59,962 nucleotides of DNA from Candidatus Omnitrophota bacterium (GTDB taxonomy: Bacteria; Omnitrophota; Gorgyraeia; Tantalellales; Tantalellaceae), in NCBI GenBank assembly GCA_028715965.1, contig JAQUQS010000004.1, forward strand, positions 1 to 59,962, written 5' to 3'. The translations under genes and the position numbers were made by a program. Each line of letters opens with the position of its first letter. The first letter of the stretch is position 1. The notes beneath the pieces are model-generated. The model was not told where the DNA came from and searched no databases. It saw only the letters and a program-made list of their open reading frames with translations. This document shows, in pieces, positions 2,948 through 29,486 of the stretch.

Positions 2948-5161
2948 TTGATGGATCAGGCCAGAAAAAACGAAATGATGGCTGTTCTTCTTTTCGCGAC
3001 CGGTTTATTCCTGTTCTTAAGCCTCTTTACGTTCACGGAACAGGACCTGTCCTTTTATACAAGTACACCTAACGCTATATGCCGCAATATGACAGGGGTA
3101 GTAGGCGCCTATCTTGGCGGCGCGTTCCTTTTTGTCGTAGGACGAGCCGCGTACGTATTTCCTCTCCTGTTCTTACTTTGGGGCATATCACGTTTATTGC
3201 AGATCGAAACGCGGAAGATATATTTCAAGTTATTCGGGACCCTGGTGCTTCTTGCGGCTGTAAGCGCTAGCTTGAGCATGGTCTCGGACGCTACTCGCGC
3301 TTCAGCTTTCAGCGCGGGGGGTCTTGTCGGTACGGTATCGTCCGGTTTTCTCCTGGAATACCTGGGGAAAGGGGGGGCCGCGCTTTTTATCATGGTCCTT
3401 ATCGCGCTTTCACTCCTTATCGCTACGGAATTCATGATACTTCCCATAGTCGTTTCTTGTTACCATTTTTTAAAGAAGTTGCCGGTGAAAATAAAGGAAC
3501 TGGTCCCGGAAAGAGAAGACAGCCTGATACAGAGGCCGGCCAAACCACGTGCTTCACGCAAAGAAATAGCCAAGAAACTTGAGATGATGAAAAAACAGGT
3601 CGAGGAGGTCCGCAAGACCGCCCTTGCCCCGGTAAAACAAAAAGCGGCTCCGGAACCACGGATAGTCCAGCCAGCGCGTCCTGAGAAAGTCGAAGTAAAA
3701 CCACAGAGGACAAAGGACGTAGCTGATACCGCTACCGGTGAAAAACTCGTTTATAACCTTCCTGGAATAGACATACTTAAGGGGCAGTCCAAAGTTAACG
3801 TGAGGGAAAGGGATGATGACCTGAAGGCCAAGGCCGCTGTTCTTGAGCGTACTCTTCTGGAGTTCGACGTGGAAGCCAAGGTAGTAAAGATAAACAGGGG
3901 GCCGGTGATAACCCTGTACGAGCTGGAGCCTTCTGTTGGTACAAAGGTGAACAAGATAACATCCCTTAGTGATAATATATCCCTGGCGATGAGGTCTGCT
4001 AATATAAGGATATTGGCGCCGATACCGGGTAAAGGGACTATCGGTATAGAAGTCCCGAACGATAAGCCGGAAAAGGTCCTGCTCCGGGACATATTGGAAT
4101 CTCCCGAGTATAGCGAAGAGACGTCCCCGATAAAAATAGCCCTAGGCAAGGATATATCCGGGACAACGATAGTAACGGACCTGGCCAAGATGCCGCATCT
4201 ACTTATCGCGGGCGCTACGGGATCAGGTAAGACAGTCTGCATAAACTGTATAATCAGCAGTATCCTTTTCAACGCGTCGCCTGACGAGGTCAAGTTCATG
4301 ATGATAGACCCAAAGCGGGTAGAGCTCATGATGTTCGAGGGGATCCCCCATCTCGTGTCACCCATTGTTACCAACCCCAAAAAGGCCGCGGCCGCCCTTA
4401 ACTGGGTTGTTGGGGAGATGGAACGGCGTTACGAGATATTCGCGGAAAAAGGGGTAAGGAATATCGCCAGCTATAAGGAGTCCGCCGGGGCGGAAGATAT
4501 GAACCTCCCATATATCGTGGTGATAGTGGATGAGCTTGCCGATCTCATGATGGTGGGGCAGCAGGATGTGGAGACCGCCATAATGCGTATCGCCCAGCTT
4601 TCCAGGGCCGCGGGTATACATATGATACTGGCCACGCAGCGTCCATCGGTCAATGTGATCACGGGCGTTATAAAGGCCAATATGCCGGCTCGTATCTCTT
4701 TTAAGGTGGCATCGAAGGTGGACTCGCGTACAGTTCTTGATGCTAACGGGGCGGAAAAACTGCTCGGCAGGGGTGATATGCTGCTTATGGAGCCGGGTGA
4801 ATCATCTCTTATCAGGGGCCAGTGCTCGCTTGTTGAGGATTCAGAGCTGCGCAGGATAGTCAAGGAGATAAAGGTCCAGGCCGGTCCGAGGTACATAGAG
4901 TCCGCTGTGGAAAAACAGGAGAAGAAAGGCCTGGGGGTGGAACAGGAGAAAGATGATCTTTACCACGAGGCCGTAAGGATAGTTATCGAGACGAAACAGG
5001 CCTCGGTATCTATGGTACAAAGGAAGCTCAGGGTAGGGTATACACGCGCGGCGCGGATGATCGATATCATGGAGGAAGAAGGTATAGTCGGCCCTTATAA
5101 CGGTTCAAAACCGCGTGAGATACTTGTCGAAGGGGTCGAGGAGCTGGAAGGAACGGAATAA
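2948..5161 (+). CDS. ftsK: FtsK/SpoIIIE DNA translocase
   Basis: N-terminal TM segments, Walker A GATGSGKT, DELADLM, ATQRPS, gamma domain QRKLRVGYTRAAR. Confidence 0.97.
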   Translation: MMDQARKNEMMAVLLFATGLFLFLSLFTFTEQDLSFYTSTPNAICRNMTGVVGAYLGGAFLFVVGRAAYVFPLLFLLWGISRLLQIETRKIYFKLFGTLVLLAAVSASLSMVSDATRASAFSAGGLVGTVSSGFLLEYLGKGGAALFIMVLIALSLLIATEFMILPIVVSCYHFLKKLPVKIKELVPEREDSLIQRPAKPRASRKEIAKKLEMMKKQVEEVRKTALAPVKQKAAPEPRIVQPARPEKVEVKPQRTKDVADTATGEKLVYNLPGIDILKGQSKVNVRERDDDLKAKAAVLERTLLEFDVEAKVVKINRGPVITLYELEPSVGTKVNKITSLSDNISLAMRSANIRILAPIPGKGTIGIEVPNDKPEKVLLRDILESPEYSEETSPIKIALGKDISGTTIVTDLAKMPHLLIAGATGSGKTVCINCIISSILFNASPDEVKFMMIDPKRVELMMFEGIPHLVSPIVTNPKKAAAALNWVVGEMERRYEIFAEKGVRNIASYKESAGAEDMNLPYIVVIVDELADLMMVGQQDVETAIMRIAQLSRAAGIHMILATQRPSVNVITGVIKANMPARISFKVASKVDSRTVLDANGAEKLLGRGDMLLMEPGESSLIRGQCSLVEDSELRRIVKEIKVQAGPRYIESAVEKQEKKGLGVEQEKDDLYHEAVRIVIETKQASVSMVQRKLRVGYTRAARMIDIMEEEGIVGPYNGSKPREILVEGVEELEGTE

Positions 5162-9625: not shown

Positions 9626-10870
9626 ATGGATAAAAGGATAGTGATAACAGGAGCGGGAGTGCTCGCGTCGAACGGGATAGGATTAAGGGCATTTGCCGGA
9701 TCCCTGAAGAATGGAGTATCGGGTATAAAACCCGTTACTCTTTTCGATACTTCGACCACTAAAAGTAAACTGGCCGGGGAGATATCGGATTTTGACCCCG
9801 CTTCAATTCTGGGGAAAAAAGGCCTGCGGAATCTTGATCGTACGACCCTTTTGGCTATGGCGGCTTCAAAACTAGCAATAGACGACGCGGGACTTTCTGA
9901 CCCGATCGGAGAAGATGTAACGGATCAAGTCGGTGTTTCTCTCGGTTCGACGCTTGGCAGTGTATGGTCTATAAGCGAATTTGATAAAGTCGCTCTAAGG
10001 GAAGGGCCAAGGGCGACCAATCCCGCGCTTTTCCCAAATACCGTAATAAATTCACCAGCAAGTCATATATCTATACGGTTTAACATAAAAGGGTTCAATG
10101 CTACCGTATCGACCGGGTTTTGCGCGAGTCTTGACGCTATCTTTTACGCTTTGAACCAGATGGAGCTTTACGGGTATCATACCGTTCTGGCCGGTGGGGT
10201 AGAGGAGCTGTGTGAACAGACTTATAAAGGTTTTCATAAGATCGGTTATCTTGCCGGGTCACGTGAAGGCAAGGAAGAGGTGAACTGCCCATTCGATAAG
10301 CGCCGTAATGGGATAATCCTGGGGGAAGGCGCTGGAATATTCGTACTTGAGGAACTGGAACACGCTCTTGAACGGAAAGCTCGTGTATACGCCGAAATAA
10401 CGGGTTATGGCACATCGTTCGATCCCAAGTCCCGGAACATATGCAGTCCCAAGGCTGAAGGCGCGTCTCGCGCTATCAAGATGGCCCTGGATGACGCCGA
10501 TATTATGCCGGATGACATAGGGCTTATCTTTTCGACGGCTAATTCGACGCTGGATTGCGATGTCATGGAGGCAAGGGCCATACGGAAAGTCTTCGGTGAT
10601 AGAACGGATACCCTCCCCGTAACCAATATTAAACCTCTTGTAGGCGAGACTTTTTCGGCCAGTGGGGCGATGAATATCGCTGCAGCGCTTGTGGGGACAT
10701 CAGAGGGTTTTATACCCGCCATACGATGTGAGGTAGAAAAGGATAAACGATGTAAGTTGGCGTATTTAACAAAAGTTTCGGATATGCCTTCGGGAGATAT
10801 TCTTATTAATGATTTCGGCCCGACGGGAAATAATTCGGCCATAGTGATGCGGGGGATAAATGCTACTTAA
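9626..10870 (+). CDS. Non-catalytic beta-ketoacyl synthase homologue (chain-length-factor-like)
   Basis: KS fold (RIVITGAG, LGEGAG) but TGFCASL in place of TAC, STANST in place of AHGTGT and LVGETF in place of xGH. Confidence 0.8.
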   Translation: MDKRIVITGAGVLASNGIGLRAFAGSLKNGVSGIKPVTLFDTSTTKSKLAGEISDFDPASILGKKGLRNLDRTTLLAMAASKLAIDDAGLSDPIGEDVTDQVGVSLGSTLGSVWSISEFDKVALREGPRATNPALFPNTVINSPASHISIRFNIKGFNATVSTGFCASLDAIFYALNQMELYGYHTVLAGGVEELCEQTYKGFHKIGYLAGSREGKEEVNCPFDKRRNGIILGEGAGIFVLEELEHALERKARVYAEITGYGTSFDPKSRNICSPKAEGASRAIKMALDDADIMPDDIGLIFSTANSTLDCDVMEARAIRKVFGDRTDTLPVTNIKPLVGETFSASGAMNIAAALVGTSEGFIPAIRCEVEKDKRCKLAYLTKVSDMPSGDILINDFGPTGNNSAIVMRGINAT

Positions 10871-11873: not shown

Positions 11874-13089
11874 GAGCAGGATGAAAAGGCGTGTAGTAAT
11901 AACAGGTCTTGGTATAGTATCGTCGATCGGTATTGGAAAGGATACTTTCTGGAAAAATCTCGTTTCAGGAAGATCTGGTATTACTGATGTCGACAGGTTT
12001 GATGTGTCCAATTTTTCCATAAAAAAAGCCGGGGAGATCAAAGGCTTCAAACCGGATGATTTTATGCCATCAGGCTCAGTTAAAAAAATAGGCAGAGGGT
12101 CTCAGCTAGCCATTGCGGCCACATCGCTGGTTTTTAAAGACGCAGGATTGTCCCCAAATATATTTCGCGAAAAGCGCTCTGGGCTAGTTGTCGGGACAAC
12201 AATGGGTGAGTCGCCTTCGATCGAAATGATCGACAGGTTCTGGACATCCGGGGGAGAAGAAAATGTGTATATGTCCAATGTCGCGAATTTTCCGGTAAAC
12301 AATCTTTCAAACAACATCGGGTTCTCCTTTTCTGTGGCCGGATTGAATTTGGTTGTTCCTACAGCGTGTGCTGCTGGGAATTATTCAATAGGATTCGCGG
12401 CAGATCTGATATCGAGAAATAAATGCGATTTGCTAATAGCTGGTGGTGCCGATCCACTTTCGCGGTTGGCGTTTACGGGTTTTAATAGGTTGTTCGCAAT
12501 GGCGCCGGAAAAGTGCCAACCTTTTGATAAGAACCGGAAAGGTATGATGTTGGGGGAAGGTGCGACAGTTCTTTTAATAGAAGCTCTTGAAAGCGCGAAA
12601 AAACGTAAAGCGCATATTTACGCGGAAATATTGGGATATGGCCTAAGCTGCGACGCGTATAACATGACAATTCCCAATGTGGATGGTATAGAGAAGGTTA
12701 TGAGAAAAGCTTTAATTAACGCAGGGATCGGTCCGGGAGATGTTGACTATATTTCGGCCCATGGAACCGGGACTCCCGCTAATGATAATGCTGAATGCGA
12801 GGCGATACATCGGGTGTTCGGAGCCCATTCCAAAGATCTGGCTGTAAGTTCGATAAAATCCATGTTAGGGCACACCATGGGTACGGCAAGTGCTATTGAA
12901 GCGGCTGCTTGTTGTATGGCTCTGGAGACGGCTATTTTACCTCCAACTATAAATGTAGATGAACAAGACGAGGACTGCGATATTTTTTGTATTCCGAATA
13001 AAGCTGTAAAAAAACAAATTAGGGTAGCCTTGAATAATTCTTTTGCTTTTGGCGGGAATAACGCATGTTTGGTGTTAGGAGTTGTATGA
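11866..13089 (+). CDS. fabF: Beta-ketoacyl-ACP synthase II-like (catalytic Cys-His-His intact)
   Basis: TACAAGN, SAHGTGT, KSMLGH, NSFAFGGNN; start may be ATG at 11881. Confidence 0.9.
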   Translation: MIESRMKRRVVITGLGIVSSIGIGKDTFWKNLVSGRSGITDVDRFDVSNFSIKKAGEIKGFKPDDFMPSGSVKKIGRGSQLAIAATSLVFKDAGLSPNIFREKRSGLVVGTTMGESPSIEMIDRFWTSGGEENVYMSNVANFPVNNLSNNIGFSFSVAGLNLVVPTACAAGNYSIGFAADLISRNKCDLLIAGGADPLSRLAFTGFNRLFAMAPEKCQPFDKNRKGMMLGEGATVLLIEALESAKKRKAHIYAEILGYGLSCDAYNMTIPNVDGIEKVMRKALINAGIGPGDVDYISAHGTGTPANDNAECEAIHRVFGAHSKDLAVSSIKSMLGHTMGTASAIEAAACCMALETAILPPTINVDEQDEDCDIFCIPNKAVKKQIRVALNNSFAFGGNNACLVLGVV

Positions 13090-14504
13090 ATGGGGCGTAT
13101 GATGTGATAGTAGTAGGTGCTGGGATAAGTGGTTTAATTTGTGGAGCGAAATTGTCAAAGGAAGGCTTCAGTGTTCTTGTTCTGGAAAAAAATTCTTACG
13201 CTGGAGGATGCATTTGTGGTGTGCGGAAAAAAGACTTCTATTTTGATTATGGAGCACATCTTTTTGGGAGTTTGAGTGCACACGGTATTTTTAAATACTA
13301 TTTGGACAGTTTGAATGTTAAAGACTTAGATTTTATTCGCATATCGCCAAGTGATAGATATTTTTTTTCAGATGAAAAAGTAGAAATACCTGAAGATTTA
13401 GATGAGTACGTGGAAATGTTAAAAACTAAATTCCCAACAAGTTCTAGGCGAATTAATAGTTTTTTTAGGGAAGTTATACAAATTGCACGAAGCTATTCAT
13501 CTGAAAAAAAATTAAGTAGATTTTACGATTTGAAGTTTATAGACTTGGTCAGAAAACATTTCTCAGACATAAAGTTGATAGGAGTGTTAATGGCTAGCTT
13601 TTCATATCTAGGCATCGCTCCAGGACAACTTGGTGCCACTTCAATGTCTCTCATGATGATTAGTTATCTTCGGGATGGAACATTTTATCCAAAGGGGGGG
13701 ACGCAAGCAATACCAGATGCATTTGTTCGCGGCATTAAGAATACAGGAGGAGAAATTAAGCTTTGTGAGGAAGTGCGGAAAATTTGTATTGTTCGAGATA
13801 ACGTTAAATTAATTACAACATCCAAAAAAAATCAGTATAGTTCAAAAGCTGTAGTAATTGCTTCTGACGTGAGGAGAGCATTTTCGAATATTATAGATTG
13901 CTCCAAACTTCCGGCAGGATACTTGTCTTTCTTGAAAAAGTTAAAGGTTGGGCCATCATTTTTTACTATGTATCTGGGGCTAAATAAAATTAATGATTTA
14001 AGCGAAAAATGTGGGTGGTATCATTCCTCCTATAACTTAGAGGCAAATGACGAATCACCTTTTTATGCGTTCTCGCCTAGCTGTATAGATAACAGCTTGG
14101 TTGCTTCCGATAAAAGCGTACTTCAACTTGCCATGCCATTTTATGAGGAAAATACATCTGAAATAGATTGGGAGAAACGTAAATATATGTTTCAGATTTG
14201 GATATGGAAGAAAATATGTGAAGTCATGCCACATTTGAGAGAACAAGTGCTATACGAAGAGGTCTCGAGTCCTAGTACAATTGAAAAATTTACTTTTAAC
14301 ACAAATGGTTCCATGTGTGGATGGGAGATGAGCCCGCAGTGTATGCATCTGAAAAGGTTGTATAATAAAACACCAATTGAGGGTGTATATTTGGCTGGTC
14401 ATTGGACTAATCCTGGTGGAGGTGTTGCCCCATCGGCTACTTCGGGTTGGATTGCTGCTGAACAAGTTAGAGAATACATTTCATTATTAATGCAAACAAG
14501 GTAA
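13086..14504 (+). CDS. FAD-dependent oxidoreductase, phytoene dehydrogenase/CrtISO/retinol-saturase superfamily
   Basis: VVGAGISG...LEKNSYAGG dinucleotide motif, YPKGGTQ, C-terminal AGHWTNPGGG; ATGA overlap with the fabF stop. Confidence 0.88.
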   Translation: MNGAYDVIVVGAGISGLICGAKLSKEGFSVLVLEKNSYAGGCICGVRKKDFYFDYGAHLFGSLSAHGIFKYYLDSLNVKDLDFIRISPSDRYFFSDEKVEIPEDLDEYVEMLKTKFPTSSRRINSFFREVIQIARSYSSEKKLSRFYDLKFIDLVRKHFSDIKLIGVLMASFSYLGIAPGQLGATSMSLMMISYLRDGTFYPKGGTQAIPDAFVRGIKNTGGEIKLCEEVRKICIVRDNVKLITTSKKNQYSSKAVVIASDVRRAFSNIIDCSKLPAGYLSFLKKLKVGPSFFTMYLGLNKINDLSEKCGWYHSSYNLEANDESPFYAFSPSCIDNSLVASDKSVLQLAMPFYEENTSEIDWEKRKYMFQIWIWKKICEVMPHLREQVLYEEVSSPSTIEKFTFNTNGSMCGWEMSPQCMHLKRLYNKTPIEGVYLAGHWTNPGGGVAPSATSGWIAAEQVREYISLLMQTR

Positions 14505-17071: not shown

Positions 17072-19228
17072 ATGGCTGGCTTAATATTCACAATATCAAA
17101 TTGTATAGTTTGGGTCACATGTATTATTCTTATCATAATACTCTTTGTATATGGTAAGAAAAAAGTTCACTACATGTGGGCATATTTTAATTTTGTGGGT
17201 GGCCTATGGGGATTAGGTGGTTTTTTAGTTGGTTTGTCCAAAGCCCCAACTGTTGCTATGATATCGTGGAAAATCGCATTGATAGGGTCCATATTTTCTC
17301 CAATTGTGTTCTATCATATGATAACTGTGTTAGGCGATTTGAATCGCAAGAAAATATTGTATATTTTTTACGCTTTTGGTATGTTTTTCTACCTTTTAAC
17401 ACTATTTGACTTTCTTGATTTATCAATAACACGGATTCATGATTCTTTGTTTTATGTAAAAGCGACAAATTACAAATGGGGACTTTTGGTGTCAATCTGG
17501 GGAATGATAGTCGCTTGTGCAATTGTAGAGCTATTTGTGTTGCTTAAGCAATCTACAGGAGCAAAGCGTACCCAGTATCAATTTATTTTTATAGGTTTTG
17601 TGGCAGCATTTTCTGGGGCAATATTAGATACCTTGCCCATGTGGGGATTAAACTTCCTGCCAGCGGCAAATTTGTTGATTTCGTTTTATTGTGTACTAGT
17701 GACGTATGCTATTTTGAGGCATAATTTGCTCGACATTGAAGTTATTATCAAAAAAACACTCGTATTTGCGGGTCTTTTCATTTTTGCGTATACGGTATTT
17801 GCGACTTTTGCATATATAGGTACAACATTTTTGGAAAACGTTGTTAATAATAGGTGGATAGCTATGATGCCATCAGTATTTATCGTTGTAATGTTATTGC
17901 GGCCATTAGAAAGCTTTCTCCGAAATATAACTGACAAATACCTATTTCAAAAACAGTATGACTCAAAACAGTTATTAAAGCTGTTCGCGAATGAGGTGTT
18001 ATCGGTTCTTGATATTAACCGTCTAGTGAATTTGACTGTGAATAGGCTTGTCGATTTTATGAAATTGGAAAATGCTTATATAATGTTGTTGGATGAGAAT
18101 AGGGAGATGTTTCGCGTTGTGGCATTCAGCGGAATGAGTCCTTCAAAATGGCATTTGGACGCCCAAAAAGAGTTTTTTGCCTATTTGCAGGTTACAGGAA
18201 AATATCTCCTTTTGGATGACCCTGCCAGAAAAAATATATTAAACCCATCGATAGTGTCTGTCATGGCGGATGAAAGATCAGTTTTAGCTATTCCTCTCTT
18301 TCATCGAAATGAAATGGTAGGGGTCTTGTTTCTCGGGAAGAAAAAATCGGATGAGATCTTTAACCAGGAAGATATTGATATCCTCTTGCCGTTGTCCCGC
18401 ACATTATCGATAGCCATAACGAACGCGCAGCTTTTTGAAAAGCTGTCTCAGGCACAGGCGCAGGCCGCCCAGCGGGAAAAGATGGCGGTTATTGGTACGC
18501 TCTCGGCCGGGATAAACCATGAGATATGTAATCCCCTGGGGATAGCGCGGGGGCAGTGCGAAATGTTCCTTCTCAACATGCAGGACGGTTTGTACGCCAC
18601 CAAATCTACGGGTGAACTTTTGGAGCAGGCCAAAGTGATAATGGAAAAGGTCATAAAAGAGACAGACAGGGCGACCGTTATAACGAAGAAATTGTCTTCA
18701 TTCGCGAAGCCGGCCAAAGGGGAAATAACCAATGATGTCAACGCCGAGAAAGAGATAGATGAAGTAATGACGCTCGTGGAACATGATCTCAAGTTGGATA
18801 ATATAGTCATAACCAAGAGGGTGGAGGGCGATATCCCGGCGATATCCGCCGACAGGAAACAGCTCCAGGAGATACTTTTTAATATCGTGCGTAACGCGGC
18901 GCAGGCCATGGGACAGCGTGGGACCATTGAGATATCGGTTTACGCGCGGTTCGGGGAAGTCTACATCGACATTACGGATACAGGTGAGGGGATAAGCAAA
19001 CAGGACCAGGCGCGCATTTTCGATCCATTCTTCACGACAAAAGAACCGGGTAAAGGTACGGGATTGGGCCTTTTCATAGTGAAGCAGATCGTGGAAAGGA
19101 ATAACGGCCGGATCTTTGTTAAAAGCGAATCCGGCAGTGGGACCACGTTCACGCTTGTTTTTAAGGCTTTTGATAGCAGTGATGTGAATGAACATGACAA
19201 TATAGGCGTGAGAGAAAATAACGCGTAA
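17072..19228 (+). CDS. Sensor histidine kinase HK0: multi-TM (HisKA_7TM-like) sensor, GAF, HisKA, HATPase
   Basis: About 7+ hydrophobic helices, GAF (IPLFHRNEMVGVLFLGKK), H-box INHEICNPL, N box NAAQA, DTGEG, FFTTK, GTGLGL. Confidence 0.93.
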   Translation: MAGLIFTISNCIVWVTCIILIIILFVYGKKKVHYMWAYFNFVGGLWGLGGFLVGLSKAPTVAMISWKIALIGSIFSPIVFYHMITVLGDLNRKKILYIFYAFGMFFYLLTLFDFLDLSITRIHDSLFYVKATNYKWGLLVSIWGMIVACAIVELFVLLKQSTGAKRTQYQFIFIGFVAAFSGAILDTLPMWGLNFLPAANLLISFYCVLVTYAILRHNLLDIEVIIKKTLVFAGLFIFAYTVFATFAYIGTTFLENVVNNRWIAMMPSVFIVVMLLRPLESFLRNITDKYLFQKQYDSKQLLKLFANEVLSVLDINRLVNLTVNRLVDFMKLENAYIMLLDENREMFRVVAFSGMSPSKWHLDAQKEFFAYLQVTGKYLLLDDPARKNILNPSIVSVMADERSVLAIPLFHRNEMVGVLFLGKKKSDEIFNQEDIDILLPLSRTLSIAITNAQLFEKLSQAQAQAAQREKMAVIGTLSAGINHEICNPLGIARGQCEMFLLNMQDGLYATKSTGELLEQAKVIMEKVIKETDRATVITKKLSSFAKPAKGEITNDVNAEKEIDEVMTLVEHDLKLDNIVITKRVEGDIPAISADRKQLQEILFNIVRNAAQAMGQRGTIEISVYARFGEVYIDITDTGEGISKQDQARIFDPFFTTKEPGKGTGLGLFIVKQIVERNNGRIFVKSESGSGTTFTLVFKAFDSSDVNEHDNIGVRENNA

Positions 19229-20061: not shown

Positions 20062-21384
20062 ATGGCTTACTCAGATAGCTGGCAGAGGTTGCAGGACTGG
20101 ACGGTCGAGAAGATAAAGAACTGCGACGGGGCCCTTATACCAATGGACAGGGACAGTATAAGGCAGCGGCAGGAACCCGAGCTCGATTACCAGTTCATGC
20201 TTGAGGCGGCGTCGCGTACCATGATACGCTTCAAGAAGCCCGAAAGGCTTATAAGGATGATAGTCCGGGTAATGGATGAGCAGGTGAAGGTAACGCATAC
20301 TGCTATGCTTCTCAGGAAAGACGCATCCGGGCCTTTCACCCTGATAGACAGTAAGGGCGCGGAAGGAGTCAAGATACCGGTCGGGTTCATTAAGCTTACC
20401 GACGAGAATTCGCTTATACGCCTTTTTAACGAACGCCATAATTACAAAATGTCGGAATCCGGGTCGGTTGGGTACAAGGACCTCTTGAATTTCCTTCAGC
20501 GAGACCCGGCGACCAAGTCCGATAGCGACCTGAAATCCATAGTTGAAATGGCCATCAAGCAGATGGAGCTTTTAAAGGCGACTTTATGCGTGCCGGTATA
20601 TTATAAAAAAGACCTTATCGGCGTACTTATATTGGGGAAAAAGCTCTCGAATGTGAAGTTCTCAAGGCAGGAAATAGGGTTCTTTACGACATTGGCCAAC
20701 GACGTAGCGATGGCGCTTTCGAACGCGCAGCTGATACAGGACCTCCAGGATAAAATATTCGAGGTGCATAATCTCTATGAAAGGGAGCATAGCCTGTTCA
20801 TACATACCGCGATATCTCTTGCCGCCGCTATCGACGCCAGGGACCCGTATACACACGGCCATACCGAGCGTGTGACGCAATACGCTCTAAGCATAGCCGA
20901 AGAGCTCCAGGAGCTTCCGGAAGCAGCGGAATACGCTAATTTCAAGGAAACGCTGCATATTTCCGGCCTTTTGCATGATGTCGGGAAGATAGGCGTGCCG
21001 GATGGCATTCTCAATAAAAAGAGCAGCCTTACGGACGACGAGTATGAAAAGCTCAAGGAGCATTCAGTTACGGGAGCGGCTATACTTTATCCGATACGTG
21101 AGCTCGGCGATGTGGCGCGTGAGGTCCGGTGCCATCATGAACGATGGGATGGGAAAGGATACCCTGACGGGTTGAAAGGCGAGGAAATACCGTTCATTTC
21201 GCGTATAATATCCGTCGCGGATACGTTTGACGCGATAACGAGCGACAGGCCGTATAGACAGAAAAAAATGGCGGAAGTAGCCATACAGATCATCAAGGAT
21301 AATTCTGGCAGCCAGTTCGATCCCATAGTGGTAAGCGCTTTTCTGCTGGCGCATCGGAAAGGCAAATTTGGTAACGTGTCATGA
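20062..21384 (+). CDS. GAF + HD-GYP cyclic-dinucleotide phosphodiesterase
   Basis: DPYTHGHTERV, LLHDVGKIG, HHERWDGKGYP, DAITSDRPYR; upstream GAF; no REC domain. Confidence 0.93.
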   Translation: MAYSDSWQRLQDWTVEKIKNCDGALIPMDRDSIRQRQEPELDYQFMLEAASRTMIRFKKPERLIRMIVRVMDEQVKVTHTAMLLRKDASGPFTLIDSKGAEGVKIPVGFIKLTDENSLIRLFNERHNYKMSESGSVGYKDLLNFLQRDPATKSDSDLKSIVEMAIKQMELLKATLCVPVYYKKDLIGVLILGKKLSNVKFSRQEIGFFTTLANDVAMALSNAQLIQDLQDKIFEVHNLYEREHSLFIHTAISLAAAIDARDPYTHGHTERVTQYALSIAEELQELPEAAEYANFKETLHISGLLHDVGKIGVPDGILNKKSSLTDDEYEKLKEHSVTGAAILYPIRELGDVAREVRCHHERWDGKGYPDGLKGEEIPFISRIISVADTFDAITSDRPYRQKKMAEVAIQIIKDNSGSQFDPIVVSAFLLAHRKGKFGNVS

Positions 21385-23000
21385 ACGCATTTGCGTTATC
21401 AGGATTTTTAGCGGGCTTTGCGTGCTTATGCATGGGGTTATTTGTTTTAAGGTACTCCACCAATAAAATCCATTTTACATTTTCCTTACAAGTACTTTCT
21501 ATCTCCATATGGGGTTTTGCATGTGGCTTTGCAGGAATTGCAAAAAATCCAACTAATGCTTTGTTGTGGTGGAAGATCGCGCATATAGTTGCTTTTTTTA
21601 TTATTGCATTTTTACTGCATCATGTTCTATTGGTTAGACAATTGAGTCGTCCGATACTAATATTTGGGGCGTATGTTATTTCGGTTTCTTTGCCAATTGT
21701 CTTCTATCTTAATTTTCATGGTATAACCATGAGATATGTATTCGATAGTTTTTATATTCCTGCCTATACAAATCTCATTTATCCTTCATATTGCATTCTT
21801 TGGTTCGCAATTGGTGTTTATATAACAATTCTTTTAATTGGTATGTACAGGCAAGCCTCTTTACCGGAAAAAACCGTTGCCAGATTATATATTTTTTCAT
21901 ATATTTTGGGGCTATGGGGTGGGGGAGCATATATCTTTCTCATATTTGGCTTAAATATCTATCCGTATGGAAATTATCTATTGCCAGTTATGTGTATTAT
22001 TATGACATATGCGATATTTAAGCACAGGCTATTCGAGATTAATGTTATTATGAAGAAAACGCTTATCTATTCGCTTCTCATAACGGTAATTACGCTTTCA
22101 TATTTTCTTATTGTCTATGCAATGGAACGATTTTTTAGTGTCTATGTTGGTTATCATTCACCGTGGTTGTCCATTTTGATAATTTCATTTATTATTTTGA
22201 TCTTCACGCCATTAAAGAACCGTATACAACATATCATTGATAAATACTTCTTTCGTGGTAGTATTGACCAGATAGATGAGGAGAACCGCCGTTTGGGATC
22301 CGAGCTGGAAAGGTCCGAGAGGTTAAAGTCCTTAGCAACGCTGGCTTCAGGCATGGCCCATGAGATAAAGAACCCGTTAACGTCTATTAAGACGTTCTCG
22401 GAGTTCGTGAAGACACGAGGAATGGATGCCGAGTTTCGGGAAAAATTTCAAAAAATAGTCCCACAGGAAATAGATAAAATAACCAATATCGTGAACCAGC
22501 TCCTTGATTATTCAAAAACGGACCGCACAAGGCTGGCAGAATGCAATATCCATGACATTCTGGATTATGTGCTGGCGCTCCATAATAATGAGCTTATCAA
22601 GCGCGGTATACGCCTTGAGAAGGCATATGAGGCCCGGGACGCCGGTATTACCTGTGACGCTAATAAGCTCAAACAGGCCTTTATAAACCTGGTCTTGAAC
22701 GCGATAGAGGCTATGGGCAGGGATGGGGCCTTGACCGTACAAACTGAAGCGGATGAAAAGGTGTTAACCATTGTAATTAAAGATACCGGCCCGGGGATAT
22801 CTAAAGAAAATTTAGCGCACTTATTTGATCCATTCTTTACGACCAAGGATAATGGTACCGGATTAGGGCTTTTTGTGACTCATCAGATAATTACCGCGAA
22901 TGGTGGCAAGATATCCGTATCCAGTGAAGAGGGGAAAGGAACAGAGTTCAGGGTGGAGTTGATCAAACATGAATGCATTCACGTTTTCAGGATTTACTAG
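21381..23000 (+). CDS. Membrane-sensor histidine kinase HK1
   Basis: Multi-TM N-terminus, AHEIKNPL, NAIEAM, DTGPG, FFTTK; no GAF. Confidence 0.92.
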   Translation: MNAFALSGFLAGFACLCMGLFVLRYSTNKIHFTFSLQVLSISIWGFACGFAGIAKNPTNALLWWKIAHIVAFFIIAFLLHHVLLVRQLSRPILIFGAYVISVSLPIVFYLNFHGITMRYVFDSFYIPAYTNLIYPSYCILWFAIGVYITILLIGMYRQASLPEKTVARLYIFSYILGLWGGGAYIFLIFGLNIYPYGNYLLPVMCIIMTYAIFKHRLFEINVIMKKTLIYSLLITVITLSYFLIVYAMERFFSVYVGYHSPWLSILIISFIILIFTPLKNRIQHIIDKYFFRGSIDQIDEENRRLGSELERSERLKSLATLASGMAHEIKNPLTSIKTFSEFVKTRGMDAEFREKFQKIVPQEIDKITNIVNQLLDYSKTDRTRLAECNIHDILDYVLALHNNELIKRGIRLEKAYEARDAGITCDANKLKQAFINLVLNAIEAMGRDGALTVQTEADEKVLTIVIKDTGPGISKENLAHLFDPFFTTKDNGTGLGLFVTHQIITANGGKISVSSEEGKGTEFRVELIKHECIHVFRIY

Positions 23001-23259
23001 GCACATTGACTTAAAGGTTGTTGGGAGTCCATATACCTTCGAAAAGTATACGCTTAATAGCAGGGGGGCGATATATGGGCGGGCGGCCACAAAAGAACAA
23101 ATAAAGCGCAGGATTTCACCTCAAATATTAGTATTTAAAAATTCAATTTTTGCGGGACATTGGACCACAAGCGGTCTTGGACAAACTGGTATTCCAGTTG
23201 TGGCATTATCTGGAAAAGCCGCTGCCAAGACGATATTGTCCTTAATTGCAGGAGAATGA
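22969..23259 (+). pseudogene. Chimeric remnant: first 9 codons of a sensor kinase fused to the C-terminal ~80 aa of a phytoene-dehydrogenase-family gene
   Basis: First 27 nt are 23/27 identical to the HK1 start; SPYTFEKYTLNSRGAIYG...AGHWT aligns with SPSTIEKFTFNTNGSMCG...AGHWT of 13086-14504. Confidence 0.82.
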
Positions 23260-23260
23260 A

Positions 23261-24853
23261 ATGACCTTATTCGGCGTCTCCGCATTGTTAGCCGGAGTCA
23301 CAAGTTTTTTTATGGGTATCTTTGTCTATTTGAATGGACAAAATGAAAAAGTAAACCGGACTTGGTTGGGAGTGACTTTTAGTGTCACAATTTGGGGTTT
23401 TGGGAGTTTTATAGCTACACACCCTTCTAATATTGGTTTTTCAATGCTTTTTTGGAAGCTGACATACATAGGAGTGATCTATGTCCCGGTATTTTTTTTC
23501 CATTTTGTTTGTGTTTTTTTAAAAATTGATAGAAGTAAGTTTATCAAGTTTTTATACCTTCTCGCGAGTTTTTATTTGGTCTCCTATCTCTTTTTTGATG
23601 ACACATTCTTGGGGGGTATTAATACAATTTTCGAGGGATTGCATTGGTGCGGTTACCCGGGACCAATATTTATTACGTTCTATGTCTCATTTTACTTAGG
23701 GCTTAATCTTTACTCGTTTTATTTGTTATTTAAAAAACTCAAATCGTCTTCGGGTATCGAAAAAACTCAGTTATTTTACCTGATAATAGGATCCGCCATA
23801 GGGTGGATAGGCTCCGAGGGCTGTTTCGCTGGGGTCTGGAATATCCCCATATATCCCTTATCAAATTTTCTTACAGCAATTTATCCCATAATTCTTGGGT
23901 ATGCTATTGTGAGGCACCAACTTCTTGAGATAGATGTTATCATTAAAAAGACCCTCATCTATTCCGTTCTGATAACCATAATTACGTTGCTATATTTCCT
24001 GATGGTTTACGCCATAGAGCGGCTCTCCAGCGTGTATATTGGCTATCATTCGCCTTTACTGTCAGTCGCCATAATTACATTCTTTATTCTCATCTTTACC
24101 CCTCTTAAGAACCGTATCCAGCATATCATCGATAAATATTTCTTCCGAGGCAGCATAGACCAGATTGACGCGGAAAAACGCCTATTGGAATCCGAACTGG
24201 AAAGGTCCGAGAGGTTAAAGTCCTTGGCAACGCTGGCGTCAGGCATGGCCCATGAGATAAAGAACCCGCTTACCAGTATCAAAACGTTCTCAGAGTTCGT
24301 TAAAACGAAAGGCGGAGACCCCGAGTTCAAGGAGAAGTTTGAGAAGATAGTCCCCCAGGAAATAGACAAAATAACCAATATCGTGAACCAGCTCCTGGAC
24401 TACTCAAAGACTGACCGCACAAGACTGACCGAGTGTAATATCCATGACATATTGGACTATGTGCTTGAGCTCCACAATAATGAGCTTATGAGGCGTGGGA
24501 TAAGGCTCCAGAAGGCCTACGGGGCCCAGAACCCGAATATCACCTGTGACGCCAACAAACTCAAACAGGCGTTTATTAATCTGGTATTGAACGCCATAGA
24601 GGCCATGGGGGAGAATGGGGTATTGACGGTAGGGACGGAGGGGGCTGATCATTTGGTTGTTATGGTGAAAGATACCGGTCCGGGGATTTCGCCCGCAAAC
24701 ATTCCACATCTATTTGACCCCTTCTTTACGACAAAGGATAGCGGCACGGGATTAGGGCTGTTCGTTACTCATCAGATAATATCCTCAAATGGCGGGAAGA
24801 TATCAGTATCCAGTGAAGAGGGGAAGGGTACAGAGTTTAAGGTGGAGTTTTGA
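23261..24853 (+). CDS. Membrane-sensor histidine kinase HK2
   Basis: Same architecture as HK1; RBS AGGAG before ATG 23261. Confidence 0.92.
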   Translation: MTLFGVSALLAGVTSFFMGIFVYLNGQNEKVNRTWLGVTFSVTIWGFGSFIATHPSNIGFSMLFWKLTYIGVIYVPVFFFHFVCVFLKIDRSKFIKFLYLLASFYLVSYLFFDDTFLGGINTIFEGLHWCGYPGPIFITFYVSFYLGLNLYSFYLLFKKLKSSSGIEKTQLFYLIIGSAIGWIGSEGCFAGVWNIPIYPLSNFLTAIYPIILGYAIVRHQLLEIDVIIKKTLIYSVLITIITLLYFLMVYAIERLSSVYIGYHSPLLSVAIITFFILIFTPLKNRIQHIIDKYFFRGSIDQIDAEKRLLESELERSERLKSLATLASGMAHEIKNPLTSIKTFSEFVKTKGGDPEFKEKFEKIVPQEIDKITNIVNQLLDYSKTDRTRLTECNIHDILDYVLELHNNELMRRGIRLQKAYGAQNPNITCDANKLKQAFINLVLNAIEAMGENGVLTVGTEGADHLVVMVKDTGPGISPANIPHLFDPFFTTKDSGTGLGLFVTHQIISSNGGKISVSSEEGKGTEFKVEF

Positions 24854-24866
24854 GGGTAAAGGAATA

Positions 24867-26474
24867 ATGAGTGTCTTTCAGTTATCAAATATCATGGTAG
24901 TGGCGACTAACTTTGGTATTGCCATATTTTTTCTTTTTAGCGCAAGAAAGCACTATTTGTTCGCATTATTTACCATGAGTGCTGGTGTTTGGGGAGTTGG
25001 AGCTTATATCTTTTCGTCAGCTTCAATGCAAGGGTATGATCTAGCGTTTTTAGGGTGGAAGATAGCATATATGGGGGCGTTCTTCACGGTAATATTTTTT
25101 TCACATTTTGTGATGAAATACCTGGATATGGGTCGTAAAAAACTTATCTTATATTTATACATATCGGGTTTAATCTTTTCATTTTTTAATTGGTATCAAA
25201 ACTCGCATTATTTCTTGCAAGACTTACGTTTTGTTTTTAATGAGATATATTGGCTCGATGCCATAAAAGCTAATAATTTTTTGTGGTACATATTTTATGT
25301 GAGTTATTACTGGGTTGCCTTGCTTTATGTTTTTTACAAGTTAATAGTTAAGTACTGCGACTCCGAAGGCGCATACAAACAAAAAATCAAATATTTTATA
25401 ATTGCGGCTGGCATTGGTTGGTTGGGGACGGAACCGCTTTTTTTGCCAGCACTTCATGTTGACGCATATCCTTATTCGAACTTCCTTATCGCGATATATC
25501 CATTAATATTTGCATATGCTATTGTTCGGCATCAGGTGATGGATGTCGAAATCATAATTAAGAAGACCCTAATTTATTCTGCTCTAATAACTGTTATTAC
25601 TTTGCTTTACTTTCTTATTGTCTATGCTATGGAACGTATCTTCAGTGTGTATATTGGCTATCACTCTCCATTTTTATCTATTCTGATAATATCATTTATC
25701 ATCCTAATTTTCACGCCTCTCAAGAATCGGCTTCAACATATAGTTGATAAGTACTTCTTCAAGGGAAGCATAGACCAGATAGACGCGGAAAAACGCCTGT
25801 TAGAGTCCGAGCTGGAAAGGACAGAACGCCTCAAGTCCATAGCTACATTGGCTTCAGGCATGGCCCATGAGATAAAGAACCCGCTAACAAGTATAAAAAC
25901 GTTCTCGGAGTTCGTTAAAACGCGCGGTATGGAGCATGACTTTAGAGAGAAGTTCGAAAAGATAGTCCCCCAGGAAATAGACAAAATAACCAATATCGTC
26001 AACCAGCTCCTGGATTATTCCAAGACAGACCGTACAAGGCTGGCCGAATGTAACATTCATGATATTCTGGACTATGTGCTGGAATTACACAATAATGAGC
26101 TTATAAGGCGTAATATAAGGCTTGAGAAGGCCTATGCGGCCCAGAACCCGAACATCACCTGTGACCCCAATAAGCTTAAACAGGCCTTTATAAACCTGGT
26201 CCTGAACGCCATAGAGGCCATGGGGGAGAATGGGGTATTGACGGTAGGGACGGAGGGGGCTGATCATTTGGTTGTTATGGTGAAAGATACCGGTCCGGGG
26301 ATTTCGCCCGCAAACATTCCACATCTATTTGACCCCTTCTTTACGACAAAGGATAGCGGAACGGGGTTAGGGCTTTTTGTGACTCATCAGATAATTGCCG
26401 CGAATGCTGGTAAGATATCCGTAGTTAGTGAGAAGGGGAAGGGTACAGAGTTTAAGGTGGAGTTTGATCTATAA
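24867..26474 (+). CDS. Membrane-sensor histidine kinase HK3
   Basis: Same architecture as HK1/HK2; likely start ATG 24867 (MSVFQLSN). Confidence 0.92.
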   Translation: MSVFQLSNIMVVATNFGIAIFFLFSARKHYLFALFTMSAGVWGVGAYIFSSASMQGYDLAFLGWKIAYMGAFFTVIFFSHFVMKYLDMGRKKLILYLYISGLIFSFFNWYQNSHYFLQDLRFVFNEIYWLDAIKANNFLWYIFYVSYYWVALLYVFYKLIVKYCDSEGAYKQKIKYFIIAAGIGWLGTEPLFLPALHVDAYPYSNFLIAIYPLIFAYAIVRHQVMDVEIIIKKTLIYSALITVITLLYFLIVYAMERIFSVYIGYHSPFLSILIISFIILIFTPLKNRLQHIVDKYFFKGSIDQIDAEKRLLESELERTERLKSIATLASGMAHEIKNPLTSIKTFSEFVKTRGMEHDFREKFEKIVPQEIDKITNIVNQLLDYSKTDRTRLAECNIHDILDYVLELHNNELIRRNIRLEKAYAAQNPNITCDPNKLKQAFINLVLNAIEAMGENGVLTVGTEGADHLVVMVKDTGPGISPANIPHLFDPFFTTKDSGTGLGLFVTHQIIAANAGKISVVSEKGKGTEFKVEFDL

Positions 26475-29100: not shown

Positions 29101-29486
29101 GTACCCGGTACAAGGTGAAGGCGGGGACAGGTTAAGCGGGAGTTTGTACCAGGTACAAGGTTGCTCGGAGGCCCAGAAAGGCGGGGACAGGTTGAGAAGG
29201 AGTTTGTACCAGGTACAAAAGGTGAGAAAGGTTCAGACCGACCGAGGGGCCACCGAGCCCCGAGGAAGTGTCGGAAACCCAGGAAGGTTCAGACCGACCG
29301 AGGGGGCACCGAGCCCCGAGAAAGTGTCGGAGGTCCAGAAAGACGGGGACAGGTTGAGCGGGAGTTTGTACCAGGTACAAAAGGTGAGAAAGGTTCAGAC
29401 CGACCGAGGGGCCACCGAGCCGCGAGGAAGTGTCGGAGGGCCAGAAAGGCGGGGACAGGTTAAGCGGGGGTTTGTACCAGGTACAA
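29101..29486. repeat. Mosaic array of two palindromic repeat units (REP/BIME-like)
   Basis: Unit A (GGCGGGGACAGGTT...TTGTACC-A-GGTACAA) with palindromes at 29144, 29204, 29366, 29472 plus a partial at 29101; 48-nt unit B at 29228, 29284, 29390. Confidence 0.9.

What the first reader, a model, noticed from the sequence alone, without database searches (positions are those of the whole stretch)
22969..23263. Recombination scar: kinase start fused to an oxidoreductase tail directly upstream of HK2
Seen: ATGAATGCATTCACGTTTTCAGGATTT (MNAFTFSGF) is 23/27 identical to the HK1 start (MNAFALSGF). It continues in frame into the last ~80 aa of a second, divergent phytoene-dehydrogenase-family gene (SP.T.EK.T.N..G...AGHWT), whose TGA lies 1 nt before the HK2 ATG. 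HK1 also reads through this junction with an extra tail (IKHECIHVFRIY) absent from HK2 and HK3. Inference: HK2 was captured from another lipid cluster in which the oxidoreductase sat directly before the receptor, replacing a former HK1-like gene. This is direct support for orphan receptors coming from foreign signal cassettes.
Basis: partly seen in the sequence, partly recalled or inferred. Interest (0 to 1): 0.78.

Follow-up and report, generated by a model that had tools for sequence, protein, structure and literature searches.

The report
Scar of a captured kinase sensor
A 96-codon leftover gene between two sensor kinases of an uncultured Omnitrophota bacterium joins the first nine codons of a kinase to the last ~86 codons of a lipid-tailoring oxidoreductase. 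It marks where a piece of another lipid-cluster variant, enzyme end plus membrane sensor, was grafted onto a resident kinase.

Summary

- **The ORF.** ORF 22969-23259 starts with 27 nt that match the HK1 start at 23/27. No other site in the window reaches 20/27, and the maximum over 200 simulated windows was 20.
- **The oxidoreductase tail.** Residues ~11-96 are the C-terminal end of a phytoene-desaturase/amine-oxidase-family protein. They are 28-30% identical to the window's own ox1.
- **Linked homologues.** Depending on the alignment, the tail is 45-53% identical to oxidoreductases in three other loci (two named Omnitrophota MAGs and one unlabelled ENA metagenome contig). In each, that gene sits 0-10 nt upstream of a 7TM kinase whose sensor is 50-63% identical to HK2's.
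- **Only the sensor came in.** From the conserved KKTL motif (~23940) onward, HK2 has the array-type core, 83-89% identical to HK1 and HK3.
- **HK1's extra tail.** A one-base loss in a T run explains it. With that base present, HK1 would stop on an ATGA overlapping the scar's ATG.
- **Not an assembly artefact.** Unitigs from two runs span both junctions with no differences.
- **Allelic cassette.** A second public MAG contig is 100% identical from window 18398 onward but carries a different tailoring-enzyme/sensor cassette. Its cluster-linked sensor is 84% identical to HK3's.

The picture is a pherotype-like polymorphic cassette, resembling comQXP and agr.

The parts
21381..23000 (+). HK1, a 7TM (HisKA_7TM) - HisKA - HATPase_c kinase. 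Its last 13 codons (22959-22997, LIKHECIHVFRIY) are out of frame relative to the HK2 and HK3 ends.
   Evidence: Pfam; 3' end comparison.
22959..22960 (+). TT run where HK1 lacks one T relative to HK3 (GTGGAGTT-GATC versus GTGGAGTTTGATC). With the T present, HK1 would end VEFDQT-TGA, and that TGA would overlap the ATG at 22969 as ATGA. The HD-GYP/HK1 junction at 21381 has the same overlap.
   Evidence: No variant at this site in unitigs of two runs. The ancestral state is inferred.
22969..22995 (+). Nine codons (MNAFTFSGF) left from the start of a former HK1-type kinase gene.
   Evidence: 23/27 nt match to 21381-21407, unique in the window and beyond the maximum of 200 simulations. The same N-terminal motif occurs in HK1-type sensors P0168 and P0169. 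MNAF is not oxidoreductase-like: each residue has frequency <=0.03 in 78 homologues.
22996..23259 (+). Last ~86 codons plus the stop of a phytoene-desaturase/amine-oxidase-family oxidoreductase. The N-terminal ~395 codons, including the FAD-binding Rossmann part, are missing, so this is a gene remnant.
   Evidence: It keeps P21, T28, N30, G33, G37, Q44, GHW63-65, G74 and SG81-82. It carries W38R and L59S, each seen in 0 of 78 homologues. Its terminal branch is long, 1.05 versus 0.33-0.53 for its closest relatives.
23250..23254 (+). AGGAG Shine-Dalgarno-like motif 6 nt before the HK2 ATG, inside the remnant's last codons.
   Evidence: Read directly from the sequence. The tight oxidoreductase-stop/kinase-start junction is the same as in L001, L003 and L004.
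23261..23940 (+). Captured sensor module of HK2 (7TM, PF16927), up to the motif RHQLLEIDVIIKKTL.
   Evidence: 59-63% identical to the sensors of P0002, P0003 and P0004 and 50% to P0005, but 24-34% to the other sensors of the window. It falls in a clade with 99/99 support. DNA identity to HK1 and HK3 is ~40% here.
23941..24853 (+). Resident array-type core of HK2 (TM/linker, HisKA, HATPase_c). It is kept similar to HK1 and HK3, including a stretch with 100% identity to HK3 over roughly 24588-24744.
   Evidence: Core identities are 83-89% within the window and ~50% to the array cores of L002. The sliding-window identity rises at 23890-23940. After KKTL, GAF-type kinases read VFAGLF and array-type kinases read IYSxLIT.
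24867..26474 (+). HK3, the next array kinase. Its sensor is a close paralogue of the cluster-linked sensor of the alternative cassette allele.
   Evidence: 84% amino-acid and 77% DNA identity to the L014 HK0 sensor.
13065..14504 (+). ox1, the window's own intact oxidoreductase of the same superfamily. It is not the source of the remnant.
   Evidence: 28-30% identical to the remnant. In the window it is separated from HK0 by a KS gene and two flavodoxin-like genes.
17072..18397 (+). Variable part of HK0 (sensor, linker and GAF). It belongs to the swappable cassette, and the allele boundary lies at 18397/18398.
   Evidence: Against the second MAG contig L014: unrelated before 17705, 74% identity over 17705-18397, and 100% from 18398 onward.

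Best explanation
The 96-codon ORF is a non-functional recombination scar. A piece of about 940 nt, taken from a variant of the same lipid (KS/ACP) cluster, replaced the sensor-coding part of a resident HK1-type array kinase. In that variant a CrtI-superfamily oxidoreductase gene abuts the cluster's 7TM receptor kinase. The piece comprised the last ~86 codons of the oxidoreductase, the native tight junction, and the first ~226 codons (the 7TM sensor) of the receptor.

The right-hand crossover lay in the RHQLLxIxVIIKKTL segment after the last sensor helix. Both kinase architectures conserve this segment. The left-hand join was illegitimate, between codon 9/10 of the resident kinase and about codon 395 of the oxidoreductase, and happened to be in frame.

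The result has three parts:
- the resident start codon now heads a chimeric ORF that ends 1 nt before the new sensor's ATG;
- HK2 is a foreign-type sensor on the resident core;
- gene conversion later kept the cores of HK1, HK2 and HK3 alike.

The fragment lacks the FAD-binding domain, so it cannot be an enzyme, and it shows signs of relaxed constraint. HK1's extra tail came from loss of one T, which removed its original ATGA-overlapping stop.

Shown: the anatomy, the homologies, the adjacency in relatives, the boundaries, and read support.
Inferred: the order of events, the one-sided-homology mechanism, the ancestral HK1 stop, and the decay of the fragment.
For: 1.
2. The three GAF-type kinases with the closest HK2-type sensors (P0002 60%, P0003 63%, P0005 49-50%) each lie directly after an amine-oxidase-family gene in KS/ACP/FabG clusters. 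The junction DNA has the same layout as in the window.
3. The remnant is 45-53% identical to those oxidoreductase ends, 41% to L002's and 28-30% to ox1. In an ML tree it is sister, with 87/71 support, to the clade that holds exactly those genes. The sensor tree gives the matching clade with 99/99 support.
4. Sensor and core have separate histories. Cores are 83-89% identical within this genome and ~50% to L002, while sensors are 24-34% identical within it. The HK2-to-HK1/HK3 DNA identity jumps at 23890-23940, at a motif shared by both architectures.
5. The capture is general. HK3's sensor is 84% identical to the cluster-linked sensor of an alternative cassette on a backbone that is 100% identical. 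HK1's sensor type sits in the cluster-linked position in L010.
6. Oxidoreductase identity tracks sensor identity (Spearman 0.52) and not core identity (-0.20) over 7 loci.
7. Logan unitigs of two runs span 22476-23911 and 22719-24225 with no differences. The NCBI MAG contig carries the identical scar.
8. tblastn finds no other oxidoreductase, nitroreductase or GMC fragment in the window.
Against: - No close donor was found. The best oxidoreductase matches are ~50% identical and the best sensor matches ~60%, so the source and the date are unknown.
- The remnant's placement rests on 86 residues with moderate support (87/71).
- P0004 in L002 has an HK2-type sensor in an array kinase with no scar. 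Capture therefore need not leave a fragment, and a common array ancestor cannot be fully excluded, although P0004 groups with P0002 and P0003 rather than with HK2.
- If the donor kinase was GAF-type, the shared right-hand homology is only ~45 nt, which is short for a homologous crossover.
- The ORF is still open after its apparent extra divergence. That could mean a recent event or selection on it, for example as a spacer that delivers ribosomes to the HK2 start.
- There are no RNA or protein data.
Confidence: 0.74

Rival explanations
1. Deletion model. A complete second lipid cluster that ended in ox-HK2 once lay between an HK1-like kinase and HK2. One large deletion, from codon 10 of that kinase to about codon 395 of the oxidoreductase, removed it. 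HK2's core was later converted to the array type.
For: It gives the same left junction. Tandem kinases and cluster variants exist in relatives: L003 has three GAF-type kinases in a row after the oxidoreductase. Gene conversion between the cores is evident.
Against: It needs three events: a tandem cluster, a deletion, and replacement of a GAF-type core by a HisKA-type core exactly from the KKTL motif. No locus seen has two clusters in tandem. No other cluster fragments remain in the window.
Confidence: 0.13
2. The small ORF is kept for a function. It might be a translated spacer that couples translation to the HK2 start, or a small protein in its own right, rather than a decaying remnant.
For: It is in frame and open for 96 codons. 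It keeps a GGAG 10 nt before its ATG, ends 1 nt before the HK2 ATG, and retains most conserved residues of the family's C-terminal end.
Against: - It has no FAD-binding domain.
- It has two substitutions never seen in 78 homologues and a long branch.
- No similar small ORF exists among 5.8 billion protein clusters.
- HK2 has its own AGGAG.
- HK1's ribosomes now read 31 nt past the ORF's ATG, which weakens any coupling.
- Even if true, the origin by capture would stand.
Confidence: 0.08
3. Artefact or chance. The junction is a mis-assembly across repeated kinase cores, or the 27-nt match and the oxidoreductase similarity are coincidental.
For: The kinase cores are repetitive and fragment the unitig graph.
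Against: Both junctions lie in unique sequence. Single unitigs from two runs span them with 0 differences, and an independent NCBI MAG contig carries them too. A 23/27 match is beyond every simulation, and the oxidoreductase homology reaches E=1e-15 to 1e-18.
Confidence: 0.02

Closest known systems
comQXPA pherotype polymorphism of Bacillus subtilis (variable comQ, comX and the membrane N-terminal part of comP; conserved cytoplasmic part of ComP and ComA)
   Same: The variable cassette is a signal-tailoring enzyme plus the sensor half of the receptor kinase, and the boundary lies inside the kinase gene. Kinase core and regulators are conserved. PMC4008528 and PMC4408185 describe the polymorphism and the variable ComP N-terminal domain. 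Here the window and L014 are 100% identical from 18398 onward and unrelated upstream.
   Different: The presumed signal here comes from a KS/ACP/FabG lipid cluster, not an isoprenylated peptide. The variable part also includes a GAF domain. Next to the cluster lies an array of extra kinases carrying sensors of other cassette types on a homogenised core. No signal or specificity has been demonstrated.
agr hypervariable region of staphylococci (agrB 3' part, agrD, agrC sensor part). Compared from general knowledge.
   Same: The synthesis component and the receptor sensor diverge together as one linked block, with recombination boundaries inside the genes.
   Different: agr uses a peptide thiolactone system with one receptor per locus. 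No orphan receptor array and no gene-fragment scar is a known feature of it.
Homology-facilitated illegitimate recombination (one homologous anchor plus one illegitimate join), described for natural transformation in Acinetobacter and Streptococcus pneumoniae. Compared from general knowledge.
   Same: One end of the patch lies in a conserved segment (the KKTL motif). The other joins unrelated sequences, kinase codon 9 to oxidoreductase codon ~395, and leaves a chimeric ORF.
   Different: The mechanism is inferred from the product only. The visible anchor is short, and neither the donor nor the uptake route is known.
Gene remnants at cassette borders of polysaccharide loci (capsule and O-antigen clusters). 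Compared from general knowledge.
   Same: Truncated gene ends left at the edge of a replaced cassette serve as footprints of past exchange.
   Different: Here the cassette is a signalling module, and the remnant is fused in frame to the start of the gene it displaced.
Rpf/DSF signalling (RpfF-RpfC-RpfG HD-GYP) of Xanthomonas. Compared from general knowledge.
   Same: A fatty-acid-type product, a membrane sensor kinase and an HD-GYP phosphodiesterase lie in one neighbourhood.
   Different: There is no RpfF-type crotonase. The HD-GYP protein has a GAF domain and no receiver domain. The sensor is a 7TM HisKA_7TM domain. The functional link was not tested.

Membership tests
Phytoene desaturase / flavin amine oxidase superfamily (PF01593, TIGR02734 crtI_fam), applied to the remnant | N-terminal FAD/NAD(P)-binding Rossmann domain (PF13450, GxGxxG) | tested here: not met
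   The remnant covers only profile positions 407-489 of 504. It has no Pfam hit at E<=0.01. ox1 has the domain at residues 16-73.
Phytoene desaturase / flavin amine oxidase superfamily (PF01593, TIGR02734 crtI_fam), applied to the remnant | Conserved C-terminal segment (..TP.T...YT.N..GA.YGW....Q......L.L.GHW...G.GQ.G...V..SG..A) | tested here: met
   357 phmmer hits, nearly all to the last ~85 residues of full-length proteins. Most invariant residues are kept, with W38R and L59S as exceptions.
Phytoene desaturase / flavin amine oxidase superfamily (PF01593, TIGR02734 crtI_fam), applied to the remnant | Score above the curated family cut-off | tested here: not met
   16.2 bits against a cut-off of 238.1 for crtI_fam. 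The intact cluster oxidoreductases also score only 127-155 bits, so they are distant relatives and not CrtI proper.
HisKA_7TM sensor histidine kinase, applied to HK2 | PF16927 7TM sensor plus HisKA plus HATPase_c, each above its cut-off | tested here: met
   68.0, 49.4 and 87.8 bits against cut-offs of 28.6, 26.9 and 26.4.
Pherotype-type polymorphic signalling cassette (comQXP/agr-like) | A hypervariable block that covers signal-making gene(s) and the sensor part of the receptor kinase, between conserved flanks in close relatives | tested here: met
   Window against L014: HK0 beyond the sensor is 92% identical and the DNA is 100% identical from 18398 onward, while sensors are 29% and oxidoreductases 30% identical and the gene content upstream differs. 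Caveat: this rests on one MAG contig, and its reads could not be examined.
Pherotype-type polymorphic signalling cassette (comQXP/agr-like) | Enzyme and sensor diverge together | tested here: inconclusive
   Spearman 0.52 between oxidoreductase and sensor identity and -0.20 between oxidoreductase and core identity over 21 pairs from 7 loci. The pairs are not independent.
Pherotype-type polymorphic signalling cassette (comQXP/agr-like) | The cluster product is a secreted signal sensed specifically by the linked receptor | not testable with these tools
   The organism is uncultured, and no chemistry or expression data exist.

The most novel reading that the evidence does not exclude
Omnitrophota may carry a lipid-based, pherotype-like communication system. 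In this reading a cassette of tailoring enzymes plus the receptor's sensor (and GAF) is exchanged between strains on an otherwise identical backbone. Sensors of other cassette types are grafted one after another onto a common kinase core in an adjacent array. A cell would then keep receptors for signals it does not make, either to eavesdrop or as an archive of earlier pherotypes. The oxidoreductase fragment in front of HK2 would be the physical footprint of one such graft.
Probability: 0.35. Interest if true: 0.8.

Novelty: new variant of a known kind. Interest (0 to 1): 0.62.

Why it matters
Recombination scars and sensor shuffling in histidine kinases are known in principle. Direct footprints that reveal both the donor context and the boundaries of a sensor swap are rare.

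Here the footprint ties an 'orphan' kinase sensor to a specific biosynthetic neighbour, a CrtI-superfamily oxidoreductase in a KS/ACP cluster. It comes with two further observations:
- an allelic cassette replacement on a backbone that is 100% identical;
- kinase cores that are alike within a genome while the sensors are exchanged.

Together these make a concrete, testable case for enzyme-receptor co-diversification in an uncultured and probably host-associated phylum. The case predicts which sensor should respond to which cluster's product, and that can be tested with chimeric kinases and heterologous expression.

Tried and rejected
I could not look for a second cluster or a donor in the window's own genome or its relatives.
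- A genome-contig scan with the 96-aa remnant found nothing. A scan with the sensor alignment returned only the two contigs already in hand.
- The metagenome-contig scan added L008, where an oxidoreductase is directly followed by an HK3-type sensor. It also added L009, where an HK2-like sensor follows an IS200/RAYT-like transposase.
- The search for homologous proteins with the remnant found only itself, so no similar small ORF is on record.
Coexistence of the two cassette alleles in the landfill samples could not be checked. On the window's own allele, long unitigs of X1 and X2 are continuous.
- I considered whether MNAFTFSGF is part of the oxidoreductase, because P0023 has TFS at the aligned place and the family has (I/L)PGL there. 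I rejected this for residues 1-4 and for the DNA match. A microhomology at SGF/PGL that helped the join remains possible.
- L014's oxidoreductase as donor of the remnant: rejected (40% identity).
- The promoter/terminator scan gave no more sites than shuffled sequence and nothing at the scar.
- Literature searches found no description of this Omnitrophota system.
Full report
**1. What is there**

The window comes from a Candidatus Omnitrophota population in landfill metagenomes. The naming rests on the homologues and on the MAG record.

Around the finding the + strand carries these genes:
- a type II FAS/PKS-like cluster: KS, FabG, KS, the FAD oxidoreductase ox1 at 13065-14504, KS, and two flavodoxin-like genes;
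- HK0 (17072-19228; 7TM-GAF-HATPase);
- two single-domain receivers;
- a GAF-HD-GYP protein (20062-21384);
- HK1 (21381-23000);
- the 96-codon ORF (22969-23259);
- HK2 (23261-24853);
- HK3 (24867-26474).

HK4, a receiver and a cupin-HTH regulator lie convergent to these.

**2.

- The ORF's first 27 nt match the HK1 start at 23 of 27 positions. This is the only site in the window with 20 or more matches, and 200 simulated windows never exceeded 20.
- The rest of the ORF is the C-terminal end of a phytoene-desaturase/amine-oxidase-family protein.
  - It is 30% identical to ox1 residues 400-473.
  - It has 357 phmmer hits, nearly all to the last ~85 residues of proteins of ~470-500 aa.
  - It aligns to profile positions 407-489 of 504 of crtI_fam.
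- The TGA at 23257-23259 lies one base before the HK2 ATG.
- The FAD-binding N-terminal domain is absent, so the product cannot be an enzyme.

**3. The junctions are real**

- Logan unitigs from two runs span 22476-23911 and 22719-24225 with no differences, at the same depth as the flanks.
- An NCBI MAG contig (GCA_028711455.1, JAQTSE010000023.1) carries the identical sequence.
- Both junctions of the scar lie in unique sequence, not in the repeated kinase cores.

**4. Where the two halves come from**

I searched with the HK2 sensor (residues 1-230). Its nearest relatives are P0003 (63%), P0002 (60%), P0004 (59%) and P0005 (49-50%).

P0002, P0003 and P0005 are HK0-type kinases (7TM-GAF-HATPase). 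Each lies directly after an amine-oxidase-family gene:
- L001: HTH-KS-epimerase-FabG-ACP-KS-nitroreductase-ox-HK-RR-RR-HD-GYP, with the oxidoreductase ending at 9998 and the kinase starting at 10001.
- L003: oxidoreductase at 440-1885, kinase from 1896.
- L004: oxidoreductase ending at 1212, kinase from 1209.

The junction DNA there has the same layout as in the window: the oxidoreductase stop is followed closely by ATGAC(N)TT(R)TT(Y)G.

The remnant's identities to oxidoreductase C-terminal ends are:

| Compared with | Identity |
|---|---|
| L001, L003, L004 | 45-53% (depending on the alignment) |
| L002 | 41% |
| L014 | 40% |
| ox1 (the window's own) | 28-30% |

In an ML tree of C-terminal ends, the remnant is sister (87/71 support) to the clade P0027+L004+L001+L003. 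Its terminal branch is long, 1.05 against 0.33-0.53 for those relatives. The sensor tree gives the matching clade with 99/99 support: P0005,(HK2,(P0002,P0004,P0003)).

So the remnant and the HK2 sensor have congruent relatives that are physically adjacent elsewhere.

In the window's own cluster, ox1 does not abut HK0; three genes lie between them. The fragment therefore comes from a cluster variant of the L001/L003 type and not from the local one.

**5. Only the sensor was captured**

- Within the window, the cores of HK1, HK2 and HK3 (from KKTL onward) are 83-89% identical, while their sensors are 24-34% identical.
- In L002, a syntenic locus of another Omnitrophota genome, the four array kinases show the same pattern: cores 80-85%, sensors 26-29%.
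- Cores are only ~50% identical between the two genomes. Yet HK2's sensor is 59% identical to the sensor of L002's P0004.
- The DNA identity of HK2 to HK1 and HK3 rises from ~40% to ~70% at 23890-23940.
- That position is the motif RHQLLEIDVIIKKTL, which GAF-type and HisKA-type kinases share. After it the two types diverge: VFAGLF in one and IYSxLIT in the other.
- Further downstream, HK2 and HK3 are 100% identical over roughly 24588-24744. This points to continuing gene conversion.

The captured patch therefore runs from about 22996 to about 23940.

**6. The left end**

- MNAFTFSGF is of the HK1 sensor type. HK1 begins MNAFALSGF, P0168 MNIFAFSGF and P0169 MNALTVSGF.
- Residues 1-4 have frequency <=0.03 at the aligned columns of 78 oxidoreductase homologues.
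- Residues 6-9 are loosely compatible with the family's (I/L)PGL. A microhomology may have helped the join.
- The 85% identity over the 27 nt is in the range of the core identity between HK1 and HK2. This fits a former tandem copy of HK1 whose sensor was replaced, but it does not prove it.

**7. HK1's tail**

The 3' ends compare as follows:

| Kinase | 3' end |
|---|---|
| HK3 | GTGGAGTTTGATCTATAA |
| HK2 | GTGGAGTTTTGA |
| HK1 | GTGGAGTT-GATCAAACATGA |

With one more T, HK1 would end VEFDQT and stop on a TGA overlapping the next ATG. The HD-GYP gene overlaps the HK1 start in the same way. I infer that a 1-nt deletion lets HK1 read 31 nt into the scar. It may have been tolerated once the downstream ORF had lost its function. 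No variant at this site appears in the unitigs.

**8. State of the fragment**

The fragment keeps most invariant residues, but W38R and L59S each occur in 0 of 78 homologues. L004's oxidoreductase end is 58-59% identical to those of L001 and L003, whereas the remnant is 45-49% identical to them. The sensor tree places HK2 no further from P0002 and P0003 than P0005 is. The remnant's lower identity and its long branch therefore suggest relaxed constraint.

The ORF is still open. My rough estimate is that this is only mildly unlikely under neutrality. I do not claim selection on it.

**9. The wider pattern**

*The allelic cassette.* The NCBI MAG contig (L014) relates to the window as follows:
- 100% identical from 18398 to beyond 29100;
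- 74% identical over 17705-18397 (HK0 linker and GAF);
- unrelated further upstream.

There L014 carries KS, a GMC oxidoreductase, a nitroreductase, an oxidoreductase, and then, with an ATGA overlap, an HK0 whose sensor is 84% identical to the window's HK3 sensor.

*The array sensors.* All three array sensors have counterparts in the cluster-linked position elsewhere:
- HK1's type occupies that position in L010.
- HK2's type occupies it in L001, L003 and L004.
- HK3's type occupies it in L014.

*Co-variation.* Over 7 loci, oxidoreductase identity tracks sensor identity (Spearman 0.52) and not core identity (-0.20). The pairs are not independent, so this is indicative only.

*Resemblance and caveats.* This looks like the comQXP and agr kind of polymorphism. 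In comQXP the modifying enzyme, the signal and the sensor part of the kinase vary together while the cytoplasmic part stays conserved (PMC4008528, PMC4408185). Two caveats apply. The allele contrast rests on one MAG contig whose reads I could not examine. In runs X1 and X2 the long unitigs carry the window's allele.

**10. Limits**

- The donor is unknown.
- No expression data exist.
- P0004 shows that an HK2-type sensor can sit in an array without a scar.
- The function of the lipid cluster as a signal source is an inference I did not test.

**11. Verdict**

The feature is a real recombination scar. The kind of event is known: cassette exchange with a gene remnant, and sensor shuffling. The system and the clarity of the footprint are new.

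Noticed in passing
window 17072-18397, compared with L014 1-5137 (GCA_028711455.1, JAQTSE010000023.1): A second public MAG contig is 100% identical to the window from 18398 onward. It is 74% identical over 17705-18397 and unrelated upstream. There it carries KS, a GMC oxidoreductase, a nitroreductase, an oxidoreductase and HK0, where the window has ox1, KS, two flavodoxin-like genes and HK0. This looks like an allelic replacement of the tailoring-enzyme/sensor/GAF cassette, with a sharp breakpoint inside HK0.
   Followed up: partly
window 24867-25570 (HK3 sensor), compared with L014 3797-4500: The HK3 sensor is 84% identical in amino acids (77% in DNA) to the cluster-linked HK0 sensor of the alternative allele. 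That contig therefore holds two paralogous HK3-type sensors, one on a GAF-type core and one on an array-type core.
   Followed up: partly
L010 283-2409 (ENA ERZ24794676): An HK1-type sensor (57% identical, N-terminus MNIFAFSGF) sits on a GAF-type kinase followed by RR-RR and a further gene. A ketosynthase precedes it with an ATGA overlap. Cluster variants therefore differ in which gene abuts the receptor.
   Followed up: partly
L009 22-681 and 743-1006 (JGI Ga0172380_10415134): An IS200/RAYT-like transposase ORF lies directly upstream of an HK2-like sensor start (53% identity over 79 residues). This may hint at a mobile-element route for moving sensors.
   Followed up: no
L002 4104-21596 (ENA ERZ28669879): The neighbourhood is the same as in the window (cupin-HTH, RR, four array kinases, HD-GYP, RR, RR, HK0, ox, nitroreductase, KS, ACP, FabG). 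The whole kinase array, however, is on the strand opposite to the cluster, whereas HK1, HK2 and HK3 of the window are co-oriented with it. An inversion separates the two lineages.
   Followed up: no
window 24588-24744 and 26203-26359: HK2 and HK3 are identical over about 157 nt inside cores that are otherwise 75-90% identical. This fits recent gene conversion. Logan unitigs break at these repeats.
   Followed up: partly
L014 3797-5968: The gene table held for this NCBI MAG contig (look-up of encoding contigs) lists HK0 as 499 aa starting at 4469. A 723-codon ORF is open from the ATGA overlap with the oxidoreductase, so the 7TM sensor is missed by that gene call.
   Followed up: yes
window 29165-29486: BLAST of L014 against the window shows interleaved repeats, ~92% identical and 100-123 nt long, at the right border of the locus. 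The NCBI MAG contig ends near them.
   Followed up: no
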